The notes: generated from the letters alone by a model not told the origin. 64,000 nucleotides of DNA from an uncultured Pseudobdellovibrionaceae bacterium (GCA_964611335.1 CAZSXR010000001.1:382993-446992); one strand, 5' to 3'; numbered from the stretch's first letter, positions 18,396 to 20,582 are shown. A program made the numbers and translations.

Positions 18396-19279
18396 GAGTT
18401 TACCCCATGTTGACGTACGCATTCACCGATAAGTAATGCAGAAGCCATAGCTACGTTCAAACTTTGAACTTCACCAATACTCGGAATAGCAACGGTCACA
18501 TCGAGTTGCATGGCTATGTCTTTCGATAAGCCACGAATCTCATTACCCAAGAAAAAAGCACAGGCTGAAGTATTCAGTTTCTGTGCATACAAAGATTTAC
18601 GACCGTGTGTTGAAGTTCCTATGGTTTGGTAACCAAGGCTTTTGAGTGTTCTTAGGAAGACTCCCAAGTCTTTGAACGGAGTGAACTCAACATACTCATA
18701 TCCACCCTCACTCATTCGGGCAGAAGATCCGGACATTTGCACTGCATGCTCTTCTTGGCAGACAAGATGCTTCCAACCGAAGTGCGCCATGATGCGAAGT
18801 ATGGAACCTATGTTGTGGGGATTCATAACTTCATCGAGAACGATCAAAGGTTGACGTTCCTTTTTAAGTTTTGCGTAAAGATCGTCTTCTTGAAGAGTCG
18901 GACGACGTCTTGCAAGCAATGCGACTCCTTCGTGGTGGACGGAGCTCGATATTTTGGCAAGGTCTTCAGCGCTCACAACGTGATAGGCCTTCTTATTATT
19001 GGCACACCATTTAAGAATATCTTTCATGTCTTGCACGCGCTCTTCTGTGCAATAGGCACGGATGATGTCTTGCTTTCTATTTTTAAAAAGGGCTCGGACC
19101 TGATGAAATCCGTAGAAGAGCAGCTCGTTTGCAGATTTCGGAGCTGGTTGCTTTTTCGGAACTATGGACGGAGCTAAATTAATAGGACTATTTTTTATGT
19201 GGGACGGAGCTGTGCTTATAACAGCTTGGGACTTCGTGAATGCAGGCCTAACACCTGCTTTACTATTAATCTTAAACAA
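18392..19279 (-). CDS. TrmH/SpoU-family RNA 2'-O-methyltransferase (RlmB-like) with ~50-aa N-terminal extension
   Basis: NPHNIGSILRIMAHFG and LGNEIRGLS SpoU motifs. The N-terminal extension contains two copies of the GGACGGAGC motif (read as Ala-Pro-Ser). The true start is uncertain. Confidence 0.8.
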   Translation of the reverse strand: MFKINSKAGVRPAFTKSQAVISTAPSHIKNSPINLAPSIVPKKQPAPKSANELLFYGFHQVRALFKNRKQDIIRAYCTEERVQDMKDILKWCANNKKAYHVVSAEDLAKISSSVHHEGVALLARRRPTLQEDDLYAKLKKERQPLIVLDEVMNPHNIGSILRIMAHFGWKHLVCQEEHAVQMSGSSARMSEGGYEYVEFTPFKDLGVFLRTLKSLGYQTIGTSTHGRKSLYAQKLNTSACAFFLGNEIRGLSKDIAMQLDVTVAIPSIGEVQSLNVAMASALLIGECVRQHGVNS

Positions 19280-19557
19280 TTTTTGCCTCTTTCTAGGTCA
19301 TATTAAGAAGTCCCGAAGCATAGTCAAATGGCTGGATTTTTCAATGAGAATCTCTTTTGGAGCAGGGAGCTTCAGCATTTCAAGTACTTAGGCATTCCGC
19401 CTTAATGGGATGGGATAGCCCTAGCAAGTTATTTTGATCTTATGTTCAATAAGCGATTATGAGTTTTTTTTGGTTACAAGATGCCTTCTGCGTAGGGGTG
19501 TTTTGGAGGTGTCGGACGGAGTAAAGCAGGAGGTGTTGGAGAGGTGTTGGACGGAGC
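19166..19557 (+). repeat. left-flank array of GGACGGAGC motif copies upstream of the RAYT gene
   Basis: Exact copies at 19166, 19202 and 19549, and GGACGGAGT at 19514, all in + orientation. The local context repeats itself (GGTGTCGGACGGAGT / GGTGTTGGACGGAGC). Confidence 0.85.
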
Positions 19558-19620
19558 AAATACCGGTTTTTCAAGATGTCACTCGCCTGACAAGCATATC
19601 TCCCCTATGTTTCAGAAACT

Positions 19621-20331
19621 ATGTATGCACGACGTTATATTTTACAAAACAAATCCTATACGCATGTCTTCTTCCGTTGTCATAACAGGCAGCACTTTTT
19701 AAAAAATGAGGAAGTTAAGAATTTTCTTGTCTATTTATGGGCTAAGTATAAGCAAAAATATAAAATTCAAATTTTTGAATTTATAATTATGGACAATCAT
19801 GCTCATTTACTTGTTTATGCGGAAAACATCGAATACCTTGGTCATTTCATGAGAACAGTAAATTCTCAGCTCGCTCGTTTCATAAATGATTTGGAAGATA
19901 GAGATAGTCAAGCTATTAGGGAAAGGTACAAGTCACCTCTCATTACGAATGAACGATATTTCCTGCAAACCATGCAGTATATATGGCTCAACAGATTTAA
20001 AATCGATAGGCAAAGTCCTCTCAAAGATCCTTATTGTTCTGTAACATGGAGACTAGATCTCCCAGCAATTTCTTATATTACAAAGGATGAAAAAATTAAG
20101 AATTTACTTTCCAATCTACTTGATGAACATCCATATTTTCCTGCTGATAGAAGTAAATTCAGAAGATTCATACGAGATATGCTTAATGCGGCATTATCGA
20201 AGTCTGATACGTATTCAAAAAAAATTTTTGAGAGCTGCCATACTATCGGAGATGATTTTGACGTCAAATTCCGCGGGGAATATTTGTCAGCTTTTGAACG
20301 AGAACATATCCCTATACCTGAACTTTCTTAA
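19621..20331 (+). CDS. IS200/Y1-family HUH transposase of the RAYT (REP-associated tyrosine transposase) type
   Basis: HUH motif in FIIMDNHAHLLV and a Tyr motif in TMQYIWLNRFK. 236 aa, which is longer than classical IS200 TnpA and typical of RAYT/COG1943 proteins. Confidence 0.75.
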   Translation: MYARRYILQNKSYTHVFFRCHNRQHFLKNEEVKNFLVYLWAKYKQKYKIQIFEFIIMDNHAHLLVYAENIEYLGHFMRTVNSQLARFINDLEDRDSQAIRERYKSPLITNERYFLQTMQYIWLNRFKIDRQSPLKDPYCSVTWRLDLPAISYITKDEKIKNLLSNLLDEHPYFPADRSKFRRFIRDMLNAALSKSDTYSKKIFESCHTIGDDFDVKFRGEYLSAFEREHIPIPELS

Positions 20332-20544
20332 AGAAATATCGAATAAAACTAATATCAGCTTCAAGTAGTAATGAATAGATTTTGCTTTTATTTCAATTTT
20401 TGAATGTAAATTCGAATTTGAAAAAGCAAAGTGAGTTTTTGACTTTTTATTTCGAGTCAATGGTAGGTGAGCTTATCCGAAAAGTTTAAAATATTTTTGT
20501 GTTTTTTGATTTTGTGAGATCAAAAGACTGATTTGTAGCTGCTT

Positions 20545-20582
20545 TCAGCTCCGTCCATATGTGTCAGCTCCGTCCATATGTG
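20545..20582 (+). repeat. perfect 19-bp tandem duplication TCAGCTCCGTCCATATGTG x2, each carrying the motif in - orientation
   Basis: Read directly: 20545..20563 and 20564..20582 are identical. Motif copies at 20548..20556 and 20567..20575. Confidence 0.95.

What the first reader, a model, noticed from the sequence alone, without database searches (positions are those of the whole stretch)
19166..20582. Single RAYT/IS200-like HUH transposase gene bracketed by inverted arrays of the same GGACGGAGC motif
Seen directly. ORF 19621..20331 has an HUH motif (MDNHAHLLV) and a Tyr motif (QYIWLNRFK). Upstream lie four + oriented motif copies (19166, 19202, 19514 with one mismatch, 19549). The last two sit in a locally duplicated G/T-rich context (GGTGTCGGACGGAGT, GGTGTTGGACGGAGC). 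Downstream is a perfect 19-bp tandem duplication, TCAGCTCCGTCCATATGTG x2 (20545..20582), carrying the motif in the opposite orientation. From established knowledge, RAYTs are typically single-copy genes flanked by inverted copies of the REP family they mobilise. What is unusual is that the repeat is not a hairpin-forming palindrome as far as I can fold it. Also, most dispersed copies in this window are intragenic, unlike classical extragenic REPs. Inference: this could be a new REP/RAYT flavour that recognises a linear word. Alternatively, the RAYT simply landed in, or accumulated, the genome's abundant motif.
Basis: partly seen in the sequence, partly recalled or inferred. Interest (0 to 1): 0.75.

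Follow-up and report, generated by a model that had tools for sequence, protein, structure and literature searches.

The report
Tyrosine transposase gene with non-hairpin repeats
A transposase-like gene from a rare bacterial family is bracketed by inverted arrays of a 9-letter DNA word that forms no hairpin. In this lineage the same word has also spread into ordinary genes by overwriting existing letters rather than by insertion, which known elements of this kind do not do.

Summary
ORF 19621..20331 is an intact Y1/HUH tyrosine transposase: Pfam Y1_Tnp, and its predicted fold is closest to the E. coli RAYT–REP complex 4ER8. GGACGGAGC occurs 23 times in 64 kb, against about 0.2 expected.

The link between gene and word is not an accident of landing. 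In 17 homologous loci, down to 35% protein identity, a box G[GCA][AT]CGGAG[CT] lies upstream on the gene strand (51 copies). The same box lies downstream on the opposite strand (40 copies). Only 3 copies point the wrong way, and distances from the gene are conserved. In most of those genomes the box is otherwise at background.

The boxes form no hairpins and sit in direct arrays, not inverted doublets. By sequence the protein resembles the "TIRYT" Y1 genes (TnpAY1 subclass 2.1), which have inverted-repeat flanks, rather than classical RAYTs. It lacks that subclass's key motifs and has its own rare C-terminal domain.

The new element is that in this lineage the bare 9-mer has spread, in clusters, into conserved coding sequence (mutL, miaA and others). 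At five checked sites it arose by in-place substitution without indels. Syntenic relatives lack these copies.

Corrections: the gene is not single-copy, and the two distal "upstream" copies lie inside the neighbouring gene.

Verdict: a new variant of a known kind. The mechanism is inferred, not shown.

The parts
19621..20331 (+). Y1/HUH tyrosine transposase gene (236 aa). HUH motif at His60/His62, catalytic Tyr120, and a family-specific helical C-terminal domain (about residues 135-236).
   Evidence: Pfam Y1_Tnp E 3.3e-10, above the curated cut-off. NCBIfam REP_Tyr_transpos 43.8 bits, below its cut-off of 80. Invariant H60, H62 and Y120 in 26 homologues. AlphaFold2 pLDDT 81. Best Foldseek match is 4ER8, TM 0.70. 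The C-terminal domain is found in only 28 of 1.84 billion cluster representatives.
19514..19557 (+). Proximal upstream box pair: GGACGGAGT at 19514-19522 and GGACGGAGC at 19549-19557. Both sit in a G/T-rich context with an 11-bp tandem duplication at 19530-19551. The last box ends 63 nt before the ATG.
   Evidence: Homologous loci have their last upstream box 58-134 nt before the ATG in 14 of 15 cases.
19576..19591 (+). Conserved element ATGTCACTCGCCTGAC between the last box and the ATG. It may be a promoter, an operator or an end signal; its function was not tested.
   Evidence: Related ATGTCAYTNGAMGRAC-type sequence lies at the same position in L038, L039, L005, L007, L008 and L010.
20332..20544 (+). 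AT-rich 3' spacer of 213 bp, with a terminator-like hairpin at about 20381-20430. The length of this spacer is conserved across the family.
   Evidence: The distance from the stop codon to the first downstream box is 198-263 nt in 14 loci. Hairpin. No Rfam family matches.
20545..20582 (-). Downstream box array: two GGACGGAGC boxes on the minus strand (20548-20556 and 20567-20575) inside a perfect 19-bp x2 tandem duplication.
18937..19210 (+). Three '+' boxes (18937, 19166, 19202) inside the coding sequence of the divergent SpoU/TrmH-like gene (18392..19279, minus strand). Two of them encode Ala-Pro-Ser in its N-terminal tail.
   Evidence: The tail is conserved as protein in L044, where the orthologous site reads GCTCCTATA instead of GCTCCGTCC.
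46891..48075 (.). Cluster of seven exact copies plus one variant inside mutL (46740..48686). Three lie in the ATPase/transducer domains (46891, 47089, 47357). Five lie in the disordered linker (47770 variant, 47788, 47821, 48011 on the minus strand, 48067).
   Evidence: Codon alignment with orthologues L040, L041 and L042 shows in-place substitution at the domain sites.
49235..50367 (-). Single copies in miaA (49235) and in the DUF2227 gene (50359). Both are in-place substitutions.
25009..26944 (.). Cluster of four copies: the C-terminus of the tyrosyl-tRNA synthetase gene (25009) and the family-9 glycosyltransferase gene (26438, 26703, 26936).
1504..1512 (-). Singleton copy in a TolQ/ExbB-family gene. 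Other singletons lie at 10726 (AhpC/redoxin-family gene), 30117 (intergenic) and 63513.

Best explanation
The ORF encodes an apparently catalytically intact Y1 (HUH plus tyrosine) single-strand DNA endonuclease/transposase of the RAYT/TIRYT branch (TnpAY1 class 2). It belongs to a small, chromosomal subfamily centred on Oligoflexales that has its own C-terminal helical domain.

The gene sits in a conserved cassette. Arrays of direct repeats lie upstream on the gene strand and downstream on the opposite strand. Each repeat carries the 9-nt box G[G/C/A][A/T]CGGAG[C/T]. The box is the only sequence shared between the two sides and across the family, so it is most likely the word the protein recognises and probably cleaves next to. 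It is read as linear DNA rather than as a hairpin.

In the window's lineage the box GGACGGAGC has also multiplied away from the cassette, in two ways:
1. Short-unit tandem or local arrays appear in tolerant sequence: intergenic DNA, the N-terminal tail of the neighbouring gene, and the MutL linker.
2. In-place replacement of 9 nt occurs inside conserved coding sequence, with no change of length.

The proposed mechanism is inferred, not shown. The enzyme would cleave and rejoin single-stranded DNA at boxes. Strand transfer between neighbouring boxes would duplicate or delete units and so build arrays. Strand transfer or nick-initiated short-patch repair at near-cognate sites would convert them to the full box.

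What is shown: the protein family and fold, the conserved box architecture, the absence of hairpins, the lineage-specific clustered spread, and its substitution character. What is inferred: that the protein binds or cleaves the box, that the substrate is single-stranded, and that the enzyme causes the spread.
For: **Protein.**
- Pfam Y1_Tnp above its cut-off.
- HUH motif and tyrosine invariant in 26 homologues.
- AlphaFold2 model pLDDT 81. Best PDB match is the RAYT-REP complex 4ER8 (E 5.7e-5, TM 0.70), followed by IS608 and ISDra2 TnpA.
- 36% identity, E 1e-16, to the published TIRYT cps4446.

**Cassette.**
- Across 17 loci there are 51 upstream '+' boxes, 40 downstream '-' boxes, 3 boxes in the wrong orientation, and none inside intact genes.
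- G at position -2 in 88 of 93 boxes, although this was not part of the search pattern.
- Conserved distances: 58-134 nt to the ATG and 198-263 nt from the stop codon.
- The repeat units around the box differ between loci and between the left and right sides.

**Direction of causality.**
- Box density is 4.5 per kb within 600 bp of the gene in all clades.
- Beyond 1.5 kb it is 0.09-0.23 per kb in 14 loci, against 0.08 in controls. In the window, L038 and L039 it is 0.47-0.90 per kb.

**Spread.**
- 23 copies against about 0.2 expected, and 25 one-off variants against 5.6 expected.
- Copies are clustered: variance-to-mean ratio 2.35, p = 3e-5.
- The syntenic orthologous regions L040 and L041 lack them.
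- Codon alignments show in-place substitution at 46891, 47089, 47357, 49235 and 50359.
- All six reading frames of the word are free of stop codons, and copies occur in five of them on both strands.
- Perfect tandem unit duplications occur at arrays.
Against: - No experiment links the protein to the box.
- HUH enzymes of this branch that have been studied use hairpins plus a short tag, and none is found here.
- No known Y1 reaction yields a length-neutral 9-nt replacement.
- The largest remote cluster (mutL to DUF2227) is 27-30 kb from the gene, so simple local action does not explain it.
- Only 64 kb of this genome and at most 10 kb of flank for relatives could be read. 'Genome-wide' abundance, and the flanks of the second paralogue, are therefore unknown.
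- L040 comes from the same metagenome as the box-rich locus L038 but is box-poor. Either these are different organisms or the spread is very patchy.
- The key motifs of TnpAY1 class 2 are altered (NHAH; no W; Y---NR instead of Y---NP), so catalytic competence is presumed rather than shown.
Confidence: 0.6

Rival explanations
1. The word is abundant for a reason unrelated to the Y1 gene, for example as a DNA-uptake-type sequence spread by biased uptake and recombination, or as another host signal. The gene would then merely sit in, or have accumulated, the genome's common word.
For: - The spread looks like that of uptake sequences. Copies arise by in-place substitution in coding sequence, occur on both strands (13:10), use many reading frames, and are accompanied by an excess of one-off variants.
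- The word has no stop codon in any frame.
Against: - The same box brackets homologues in 14 loci from genomes where it is otherwise at background.
- Orientation is 91 of 94 as expected and distances from the gene are fixed.
- Copies are strongly clustered rather than evenly spread.
- The copies are missing from the syntenic region of relatives whose MutL N-terminal domain is 78-81% identical.
- No literature connects uptake sequences with this phylum.
Confidence: 0.1
2. The cassette is an autonomous insertion sequence whose ends are multi-copy terminal inverted repeats. The scattered copies would be solo ends, footprints or preferred target sites left by its transposition.
For: - Inverted boxes lie at both ends.
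- Several paralogues occur per genome: two here, at least five or six in MAG Go_Eff_bin_111, and four on a 2.78-Mb contig.
- The gene has different genomic neighbours in the window, L038 and L039.
- One paralogue (L004) is apparently interrupted by a box array.
Against: - Paralogues are 69-86% identical, and no near-identical copy was seen. Assembly of MAGs could, however, hide identical copies.
- No target-site duplication or defined outer end could be found.
- The empty-site test was inconclusive.
- Intragenic copies are substitutions without indels, which neither footprints nor solo ends would give.
- No close relative is found on plasmids or phages.
Confidence: 0.12
3. The boxes are double-stranded binding sites (iteron- or operator-like) for the C-terminal domain. 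They would serve to autoregulate the gene or loop its DNA. The protein would be a domesticated DNA-binding factor, and extra copies elsewhere would be selected or tolerated binding sites rather than products of catalysis.
For: - Boxes form direct-repeat arrays with spacings of 16 bp or more, lie just upstream of the gene, and form no hairpin.
- The family has a conserved extra helical domain.
- The related subclass 2.1 carries C-terminal helix-turn-helix domains (PMC6006769).
Against: - The HUH motif and tyrosine are invariant, which argues that catalysis is retained.
- The C-terminal domain has no detectable helix-turn-helix family match.
- Regulation does not explain the downstream inverted arrays at a fixed distance.
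- It does not explain perfect tandem unit duplications, or 10 new copies in 3.6 kb of housekeeping genes.
Confidence: 0.13
4. The pattern is a chance or compositional artefact, for example codon usage or a repeated peptide.
For: None, beyond the fact that most copies are in coding sequence.
Against: - Enrichment is roughly 80- to 120-fold over dinucleotide shuffles and a Markov model.
- Copies occur in five reading frames on both strands and encode different peptides.
- The same box lies at conserved non-coding positions in 17 loci.
Confidence: 0.01

Closest known systems
TIRYT / TIRtron (Di Nocera et al. 2013, PMC3733652), equated with TnpAY1 class 2 subclass 2.1 and Bertels group 1 (Quentin et al. 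2018, PMC6006769)
   Same: - A RAYT-like Y1 gene of about 238 aa with a C-terminal extension.
- Flanked by inverted, non-REP repeats at roughly fixed distances.
- A few divergent paralogues per genome, and no REP hairpins.
- Some flank-repeat families are moderately abundant and clustered.
- 36% identity (E 1e-16) to TIRYT cps4446.
- Distant Y1 genes fetched here also have their own inverted flank repeats.
   Different: - The inverted repeat here is only a 7-9-nt core, repeated in direct arrays of up to 11 units, rather than one long repeat.
- The core is G[GCA][AT]CGGAG[CT], not GGGGWSAS.
- Key motifs differ: NHAH rather than NHVH, no W[EQ], and YIWLNR rather than YIELNP.
- The C-terminal domain has no DnaA_C, HTH_23 or HTH_28 match and is nearly unique to this family.
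- Spread of the bare word into conserved coding sequence by substitution has not been described for TIRtrons.
RAYT-REP/REPIN systems (E. coli TnpAREP, PDB 4ER8; Pseudomonas REPINs)
   Same: - Closest solved fold.
- The gene is bracketed by inverted copies of a short repeat that is also over-represented elsewhere in the genome.
- Paralogues each have their own repeat variant.
- Intragenic copies favour repair genes, a point noted for REPs in PMC3733652.
   Different: - No palindrome and no GTAG tag.
- Direct arrays rather than inverted doublets: 62 same-orientation neighbours against 12 opposite.
- The most abundant flanking 16-mer occurs only twice.
- Copies are not extragenic: 78% lie in ORFs.
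- Copies arise by substitution, not insertion.
- No sequence similarity to E. coli RAYT.
- The NCBIfam score is below its cut-off.
IS200/IS605 TnpA (IS608, ISDra2)
   Same: Y1/HUH fold and catalytic residues. The left and right ends are differentiated.
   Different: - No subterminal hairpins.
- The ends are inverted relative to each other rather than on the same strand.
- The protein is about 90 aa longer.
- No tnpB gene, and no identical copies seen.
- NCBIfam transpos_IS200 scores 26.6 against a cut-off of 55.
DNA uptake sequences (Neisseria DUS, Pasteurellaceae USS) and cyanobacterial HIP1
   Same: - A 9-10-nt word about 100-fold over-represented.
- Occurs on both strands and inside genes in several reading frames.
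- Created by substitution rather than insertion.
- Accompanied by an excess of one-off variants.

The comparison with these systems rests on general knowledge of them.
   Different: - Strongly clustered.
- Absent from syntenic relatives.
- Tied to the flanks of one gene family, even in genomes that show no spread.
- No link to competence was tested.

Membership tests
Y1/HUH transposase superfamily (Pfam PF01797) | Score above the Pfam gathering threshold | tested here: met
   40.6 bits against a cut-off of 23, E 3.3e-10. All 26 aligned homologues match.
Y1/HUH transposase superfamily (Pfam PF01797) | HUH metal-binding motif and a single catalytic tyrosine | tested here: met
   D58, N59, H60, H62 and Y120 are invariant in 26 sequences.
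Y1/HUH transposase superfamily (Pfam PF01797) | HUH fold | tested here: met
   AlphaFold2 pLDDT 81. Foldseek matches 4ER8, 2VJV, 2XQC and 2F4F with TM (target) 0.59-0.70.
RAYT (REP-associated tyrosine transposase) | NCBIfam REP_Tyr_transpos equivalog score | tested here: not met
   43.8 bits against a cut-off of 80. There is no BLASTP similarity to E. coli RAYT.
RAYT (REP-associated tyrosine transposase) | Gene flanked by inverted copies of a repeat | tested here: met
   In the window: 2 intergenic upstream '+' boxes (plus 3 more inside the neighbouring gene) and 2 downstream '-' boxes. Across 17 loci: 51 upstream '+' and 40 downstream '-'.
RAYT (REP-associated tyrosine transposase) | Flank repeat is a hairpin-forming palindrome with a GTAG-type tag | tested here: not met
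   Folding of 183 boxes as single-stranded DNA is indistinguishable from controls: mean -4.4 to -4.7 against -4.1 kcal/mol, and 10% against 9% with z below -2.
RAYT (REP-associated tyrosine transposase) | Flanking extragenic 16-mers highly abundant in the replicon (Bertels 2017, PMC5581495) | tested here: not met
   The most frequent flanking 16-mer occurs twice, as the local tandem only. Only the 9-mer is abundant. Only 64 kb could be tested.
RAYT (REP-associated tyrosine transposase) | Typically one copy per genome | tested here: not met
   A second paralogue, P0010 (69% identity), is on a contig of the same length. Other genomes have 4-6 paralogues.
REPIN | Two repeats in inverted orientation forming a long hairpin, as the mobile unit | tested here: not met
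   Of neighbouring boxes 80 bp or less apart, 62 are in the same orientation and 12 are opposite. The one folding inverted pair in the window is 48011/48067.
TIRYT / TnpAY1 subclass 2.1 | Sequence similarity to published TIRYTs, and length of about 238 aa | tested here: met
   36% identity over 113 aa, E 1e-16, to cps4446. hhalign probability 96.6% to pca3049. Length 236 aa.
TIRYT / TnpAY1 subclass 2.1 | Gene flanked by terminal inverted repeats at fixed distance, without REP structure | tested here: met
   However, the inverted element is only a 7-9-nt core inside direct arrays.
TIRYT / TnpAY1 subclass 2.1 | Key motifs NH[VYF]H, W[EQ] and Y[IV](E/H)LNP (Table 1 of PMC6006769) | tested here: not met
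   The family has NHAH (or NHxH), SQAIRERY in place of the W motif, and YIWLNR.
TIRYT / TnpAY1 subclass 2.1 | C-terminal helix-turn-helix domain (Bac_DnaA_C, HTH_23 or HTH_28) | tested here: not met
   No such Pfam match in any of 26 members at E up to 0.1. The C-terminal domain matches only 28 cluster representatives, nearly all from this family.
TIRYT / TnpAY1 subclass 2.1 | Flank repeat consensus GGGGWSAS | tested here: not met
   The box here is G[GCA][AT]CGGAG[CT].
IS200/IS605 insertion sequence | Subterminal hairpins at both ends on the same strand, with near-identical multiple copies | tested here: not met
   No conserved hairpins. Paralogues are at most 86% identical. NCBIfam transpos_IS200 is below its cut-off. 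Copy identity cannot be fully tested in MAGs.
DNA uptake sequence | Even genome-wide spread, shared by related species | tested here: not met
   Clustered: variance-to-mean ratio 2.35, p = 3e-5. Absent from the syntenic loci L040 and L041.
DNA uptake sequence | Preferential uptake by competent cells through a specific receptor | not testable with these tools
   Needs experiments.

The most novel reading that the evidence does not exclude
A Y1/HUH enzyme 'writes' its own 9-nt recognition word into the chromosome. It would do this by single-strand cleavage and strand transfer, or by nick-triggered short-patch conversion, at near-cognate sites. The word would then spread through conserved coding sequence without any insertion. 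That would be a new, transposase-driven route to a hyper-abundant genomic word, and a natural example of the 'ssDNA editing' role proposed for this superfamily.
Probability: 0.2. Interest if true: 0.85.

Novelty: new variant of a known kind. Interest (0 to 1): 0.62.

Why it matters
RAYT-type Y1 enzymes are found in about a quarter of bacterial species, yet only hairpin (REP) substrates have been characterised. The function of the large hairpin-less TIRYT branch is unknown.

This family offers a very simple and strongly conserved candidate recognition word. It is 9 nt long, linear, and present in arrays on both sides of the gene. That makes the binding and cleavage specificity of a hairpin-less Y1 enzyme directly testable with short oligonucleotides.

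The lineage-specific, clustered, length-neutral appearance of the word inside housekeeping genes is not what insertion of a miniature element would give. If the enzyme causes it, this would be a new mechanism of repeat spread and of localised genome editing. If it does not, the system still shows how an uptake-sequence-like word pattern can arise next to a transposase family.

Tried and rejected
1. **Fetching the same genome.** The window's own protein, its paralogue P0010, and P0008 are not on record for DNA retrieval. The genome is not in the species-representative collection. The paralogue's flanks and genome-wide counts therefore could not be examined.
2. **Empty-site test.** I looked for orthologues of the neighbouring SpoU/TrmH-like gene. 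One short contig has an IS5-like transposase there instead. Another ends 300 bp upstream, at a box-like sequence. The result is inconclusive.
3. **Hairpins.** I folded the arrays, the 5' leader and the 3' spacer as single-stranded DNA and ran a survey of 183 boxes. No conserved structure was found. L038 and L039 share a small hairpin next to the innermost downstream box, with apparently compensating changes, but the window and other loci lack it, so I did not build on it.
4. **Known RNA.** An Rfam scan of 18.8-20.9 kb found nothing near threshold. Promoter and terminator scans were at chance level.
5. **PDB sequence search.** A search with the family profile found nothing significant. Only fold comparison worked.
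6. **CGTC-tagged REPs.** The reverse complement of the window's box contains CGTC. However, CGTC is not conserved across the family (GCACGGAGC and GCTCGGAGC variants occur) and there is no palindrome, so this idea was dropped.
7. **Chi- or KOPS-like polar signal.** Rejected: orientation is 13:10 in a window with a uniformly weak positive GC skew.
8. **Peptide-level selection.** Rejected: copies occur in five reading frames on both strands.
9. **Plasmid or phage carriage.** Only distant Y1 genes were found, at 33% identity or less.
10. **Literature.** No paper holds the word in a bacterial-repeat context. None connects RAYTs or uptake sequences with Bdellovibrionota.

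
Full report

Yes. ORF 19621..20331 encodes 236 aa with IMDNHAHLLV (HUH) and QYIWLNRFK (Tyr120). GGACGGAGC occurs 23 times in the 64-kb window, 13 on the plus strand and 10 on the minus. 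Dinucleotide shuffles give 0.19 and a second-order Markov model gives 0.28. One-off variants are also in excess, 25 against 5.6 expected.

The stated copies are all present: 19166, 19202, 19549, the one-mismatch copy at 19514, and the perfect 19-bp x2 tandem at 20545-20582. The 11-bp duplication at 19530-19551 is also there.

Three corrections apply:
- A further '+' copy lies at 18937.
- Copies 18937, 19166 and 19202 lie inside the divergently transcribed SpoU/TrmH-like gene. Its N-terminal tail is genuinely coding, because it is conserved in a relative.
- The gene is not single-copy. A 69%-identical paralogue is recorded on a contig of the same length, 1,026,030 bp.

**2. The protein**

Pfam Y1_Tnp matches above its curated threshold (E 3.3e-10). 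The NCBIfam RAYT and IS200 equivalog models both score below their cut-offs.

A search of public proteins found 138 homologues. Those that carry a taxon name are Oligoflexales MAGs. The HUH histidines and the tyrosine are invariant, and a second, C-terminal region is conserved (HTIGD... FR.E.L.AF.R).

An AlphaFold2 model (pLDDT 81, pTM 0.79) is closest to the E. coli RAYT bound to a REP hairpin (4ER8; E 5.7e-5, TM 0.70, rmsd 2.3 Å). IS608, ISDra2 and IS200 transposases follow. The C-terminal helices, roughly 100 residues, have no structural match. A profile search of PDB sequences found nothing.

The C-terminal domain matches only 28 of 1.84 billion cluster representatives, essentially this family alone. 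It has no Pfam helix-turn-helix match.

By sequence the protein resembles a published 'TIRYT' (36% identity over 113 aa, E 1e-16) and not E. coli RAYT. No close relative lies on plasmids or in viral contigs.

**3. The gene-box link is family-wide**

I fetched homologous loci from species-representative genomes and metagenomes. Counting the core [AT]CGGAG[CT] within 600 bp of the gene in 17 loci gives:
- 51 upstream copies on the gene strand;
- 40 downstream copies on the opposite strand;
- 3 copies in the wrong orientation;
- none inside intact genes.

G at position -2 occurs in 88 of 93 boxes, although it was not part of the search pattern. The box is therefore G[GCA][AT]CGGAG[CT].

Distances are conserved. 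The last upstream box ends 58-134 nt before the ATG in 14 of 15 loci. The first downstream box starts 198-263 nt after the stop codon in 14 loci.

This holds down to 35-38% protein identity (L013, L014). The sequence around the box differs from locus to locus and between the left and right sides. Examples are 11 copies of GTGATGGCACGGAGCATGTG upstream in L006, and GCTCGGAGC upstream with GCACGGAGT downstream in L002 and L005.

Only the box is shared, so it is the functional element.

**4. Which came first, the word or the gene?**

Box density is 4.5 per kb within 600 bp of the gene in every clade. Beyond 1.5 kb it is 0.09-0.23 per kb in 14 loci, against 0.08 per kb in control loci. In the window and its two closest relatives (L038, L039) it is 0.47-0.90 per kb.

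The flank boxes are therefore ancestral and the wider spread is lineage-specific.

**5. No hairpin, no doublets**

Folding the arrays as single-stranded DNA gives weak, inconsistent structures. Over 183 boxes, the mean folding energy of 59-nt windows was -4.4 to -4.7 kcal/mol, against -4.1 for random positions. The fraction with z below -2 was 10%, against 9%.

Of neighbouring boxes 80 bp or less apart, 62 are in the same orientation and 12 are opposite. Spacings start at 16 bp and show no fixed period.

The 3' spacer holds only a terminator-like hairpin and AT-rich DNA. No Rfam family matches.

**6. How the scattered copies arose**

The window is 87.5% coding and 18 of 23 copies lie in long ORFs. 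They fall in five reading frames on both strands. The word has no stop codon in any frame.

Many copies lie within Pfam domains of housekeeping proteins: MutL, MiaA, a TolQ/ExbB-family protein, a family-9 glycosyltransferase, a SpoU methylase and DUF2227.

I retrieved syntenic orthologous regions from relatives (L040, L041, L042). The MutL N-terminal domain is 78-81% identical in L040 and L041, and MutL is 60% identical overall in L042.

The window's 10 copies between 46891 and 50359 are absent there. L040 has a single one-off variant, at the site matching window 47089.

Codon alignments show that sites 46891, 47089, 47357, 49235 and 50359 are in-place substitutions with no indel. For example:
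- window GGT GGG ACG GAG CGC against L040 GGT GGC AAA AAA CGC;
- window GCT CCG TCC against L040 TCT CCC ACA.

Copies in the MutL linker and in the TrmH tail sit in indel-rich sequence and look array-like. Their spacings of 18, 33 and 36 bp are all multiples of three.

Copies are clustered (variance-to-mean ratio 2.35, p = 3e-5; the same holds without the cassette). The most abundant 16-mer from the gene's flanks occurs only twice, so nothing longer than about 10-11 nt has spread.

**7. Mechanism**

Shown:
- an apparently intact Y1/HUH protein;
- a conserved box architecture;
- linear rather than hairpin boxes;
- tandem duplication of units;
- a lineage-specific, clustered, length-neutral spread.

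Inferred:
- The protein recognises the box. The substrate is probably single-stranded DNA, as for all characterised HUH enzymes, and the protein probably cleaves and rejoins beside the box.
- Strand transfer between adjacent boxes would duplicate or delete units and so build arrays.
- The same chemistry, or nick-triggered short-patch repair, at near-cognate sites could convert them to the full box. Site 47089 looks like such a matured proto-site, since relatives already read GGACGGAGT or GGTGCGGAG there.

I put 0.6 on this overall account. I am much more confident in the protein-box link (about 0.85) than in the enzyme as the cause of the spread (about 0.5).

Four rivals are scored in the Rival explanations section:
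- an unrelated uptake-sequence-like drive;
- an autonomous insertion sequence with multi-copy ends;
- operator or iteron sites for a domesticated DNA-binding protein;
- chance.

**8. Comparison with what is known**

Di Nocera et al. (PMC3733652) described RAYT-like genes flanked by non-REP terminal inverted repeats at fixed distances. They called these TIRtrons and the proteins TIRYTs. Some of those repeat families are moderately abundant. The same authors noted that intragenic REPs often lie in repair genes.

Quentin et al. (PMC6006769) placed most TIRYTs in TnpAY1 subclass 2.1. That subclass has a median length of 238 aa, a C-terminal helix-turn-helix domain, no REPs, and about two divergent copies per genome.

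The present family fits that picture in length, flank logic, copy pattern and sequence similarity. It fails the subclass's key motifs (NHAH; no W[EQ]; Y---NR rather than Y---NP), its C-terminal domain type and its flank-repeat consensus.

Classical RAYT/REPIN membership fails on the palindrome, the tag, the 16-mer abundance, the doublets and the copy number. IS200/IS605 membership fails on the hairpins and on the score.

Other distant Y1 genes fetched here (a Bdellovibrio genome and several Bacteroidales MAGs) have their own long inverted flanks. The general architecture is therefore common.

**9. Novelty and verdict**

This is a new variant of a known kind.

- **Not new:** a RAYT-like gene with non-palindromic inverted flanks.
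- **Appears new:**
  - a recognition element reduced to a 9-nt linear box in direct arrays, conserved across a whole and very rare subfamily;
  - the spread of the bare word into conserved coding sequence by length-neutral substitution, which relatives with the same gene order lack.

Limits:
- Only 64 kb of this genome and at most 10 kb of flank elsewhere could be read.
- The second paralogue's locus could not be fetched.
- The empty-site test was inconclusive.
- Nothing here is biochemical.

Noticed in passing
window 46740-48686 (mutL): The mismatch-repair gene mutL carries seven exact copies and one variant of the word, five of them in its disordered linker. Di Nocera et al. noted that intragenic REPs often lie in replication and repair genes. 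Orthologues in L040 and L041 have longer, unrelated linkers without the word.
   Followed up: partly
window 48011-48075: This is the only inverted pair of boxes in the window that folds. It forms an 11-bp stem (GCTCCGTCCTA...TAGGACGGAGC, z = -2.7), lies inside the mutL linker, and sits next to a perfect 12-bp x2 tandem (CTGTAATCCCTA, 48040-48065). It resembles a REPIN-like doublet.
   Followed up: partly
L038 9959-10042: The first 42 bp of the Y1 gene are tandemly duplicated with a few differences (ATGTAYGCAAGACGAAAC... x2). The duplication is bounded by CCC|ATGT on both sides. It could be replication slippage or a trace of cleavage and rejoining at the gene's 5' end.
   Followed up: no
window 19576-19591; same position in L038, L039, L005, L007, L008, L010: A conserved element ATGTCAYTNGAMGRAC lies about 30-45 nt upstream of the ATG, between the last box and the gene. 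It may be a promoter, an operator or the true left-end signal. The start codon context ACTATGTAY is also conserved and has no obvious Shine-Dalgarno sequence.
   Followed up: partly
L004 56-1066: One paralogue in MAG Go_Eff_bin_111 appears to be interrupted after about codon 24 by an array of three '+' boxes (GGTTTGGTGGCACGGAGCATGCTTG). This is reminiscent of the REP insertions inside tnpAREP genes reported for TnpAY1 subclass 2.4.
   Followed up: no
L038 10905-10945 and L039 10900-10935: A small hairpin lies immediately next to the innermost downstream box. Its arms differ between the two loci (GACTG/CAGTT against GGTTG/CAACT) while pairing is kept. The window lacks it; there, AGCTG-CTTT-CAGCT overlaps the box instead.
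   Followed up: partly
L038 16693-16760: Four perfect or near-perfect 19-bp tandem units (GGACGGAGCAAAGKTCTTA) lie 6 kb from the Y1 gene, at the junction of two convergent genes, with three more boxes within 130 bp. This is a remote array like those flanking the gene.
   Followed up: no
window about 50.7 kb, compared with L040 14.2 kb: Gene order matches L040 (lon, clpX, clpP, tig, ..., mutL, miaA, an unnamed gene, DUF2227). It breaks right after the DUF2227 gene, where L040 continues with dnaE. The box-rich cluster therefore abuts a rearrangement breakpoint.
   Followed up: no
L022 (Bdellovibrio sp. HCB185ZH); L030, L033, L034, L035, L036 (Bacteroidales): Distant Y1 genes (22-28% identity) are each flanked by their own longer inverted repeats, for example AAAGGTACGGACACACT in L022. 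The inverted-flank layout is thus widespread, with family-specific sequences.
   Followed up: partly
window 42470-42643 and 24242-24327: Two unrelated tandem repeats: a 21-bp unit x8 (also scored as 33-bp and 54-bp periods) and a 27-bp unit x3.2. Neither contains the box.
   Followed up: no
L043 96-1022: In one relative, the position next to the SpoU/TrmH-like gene is occupied by an IS5-like DDE transposase instead of the Y1 cassette.
   Followed up: no
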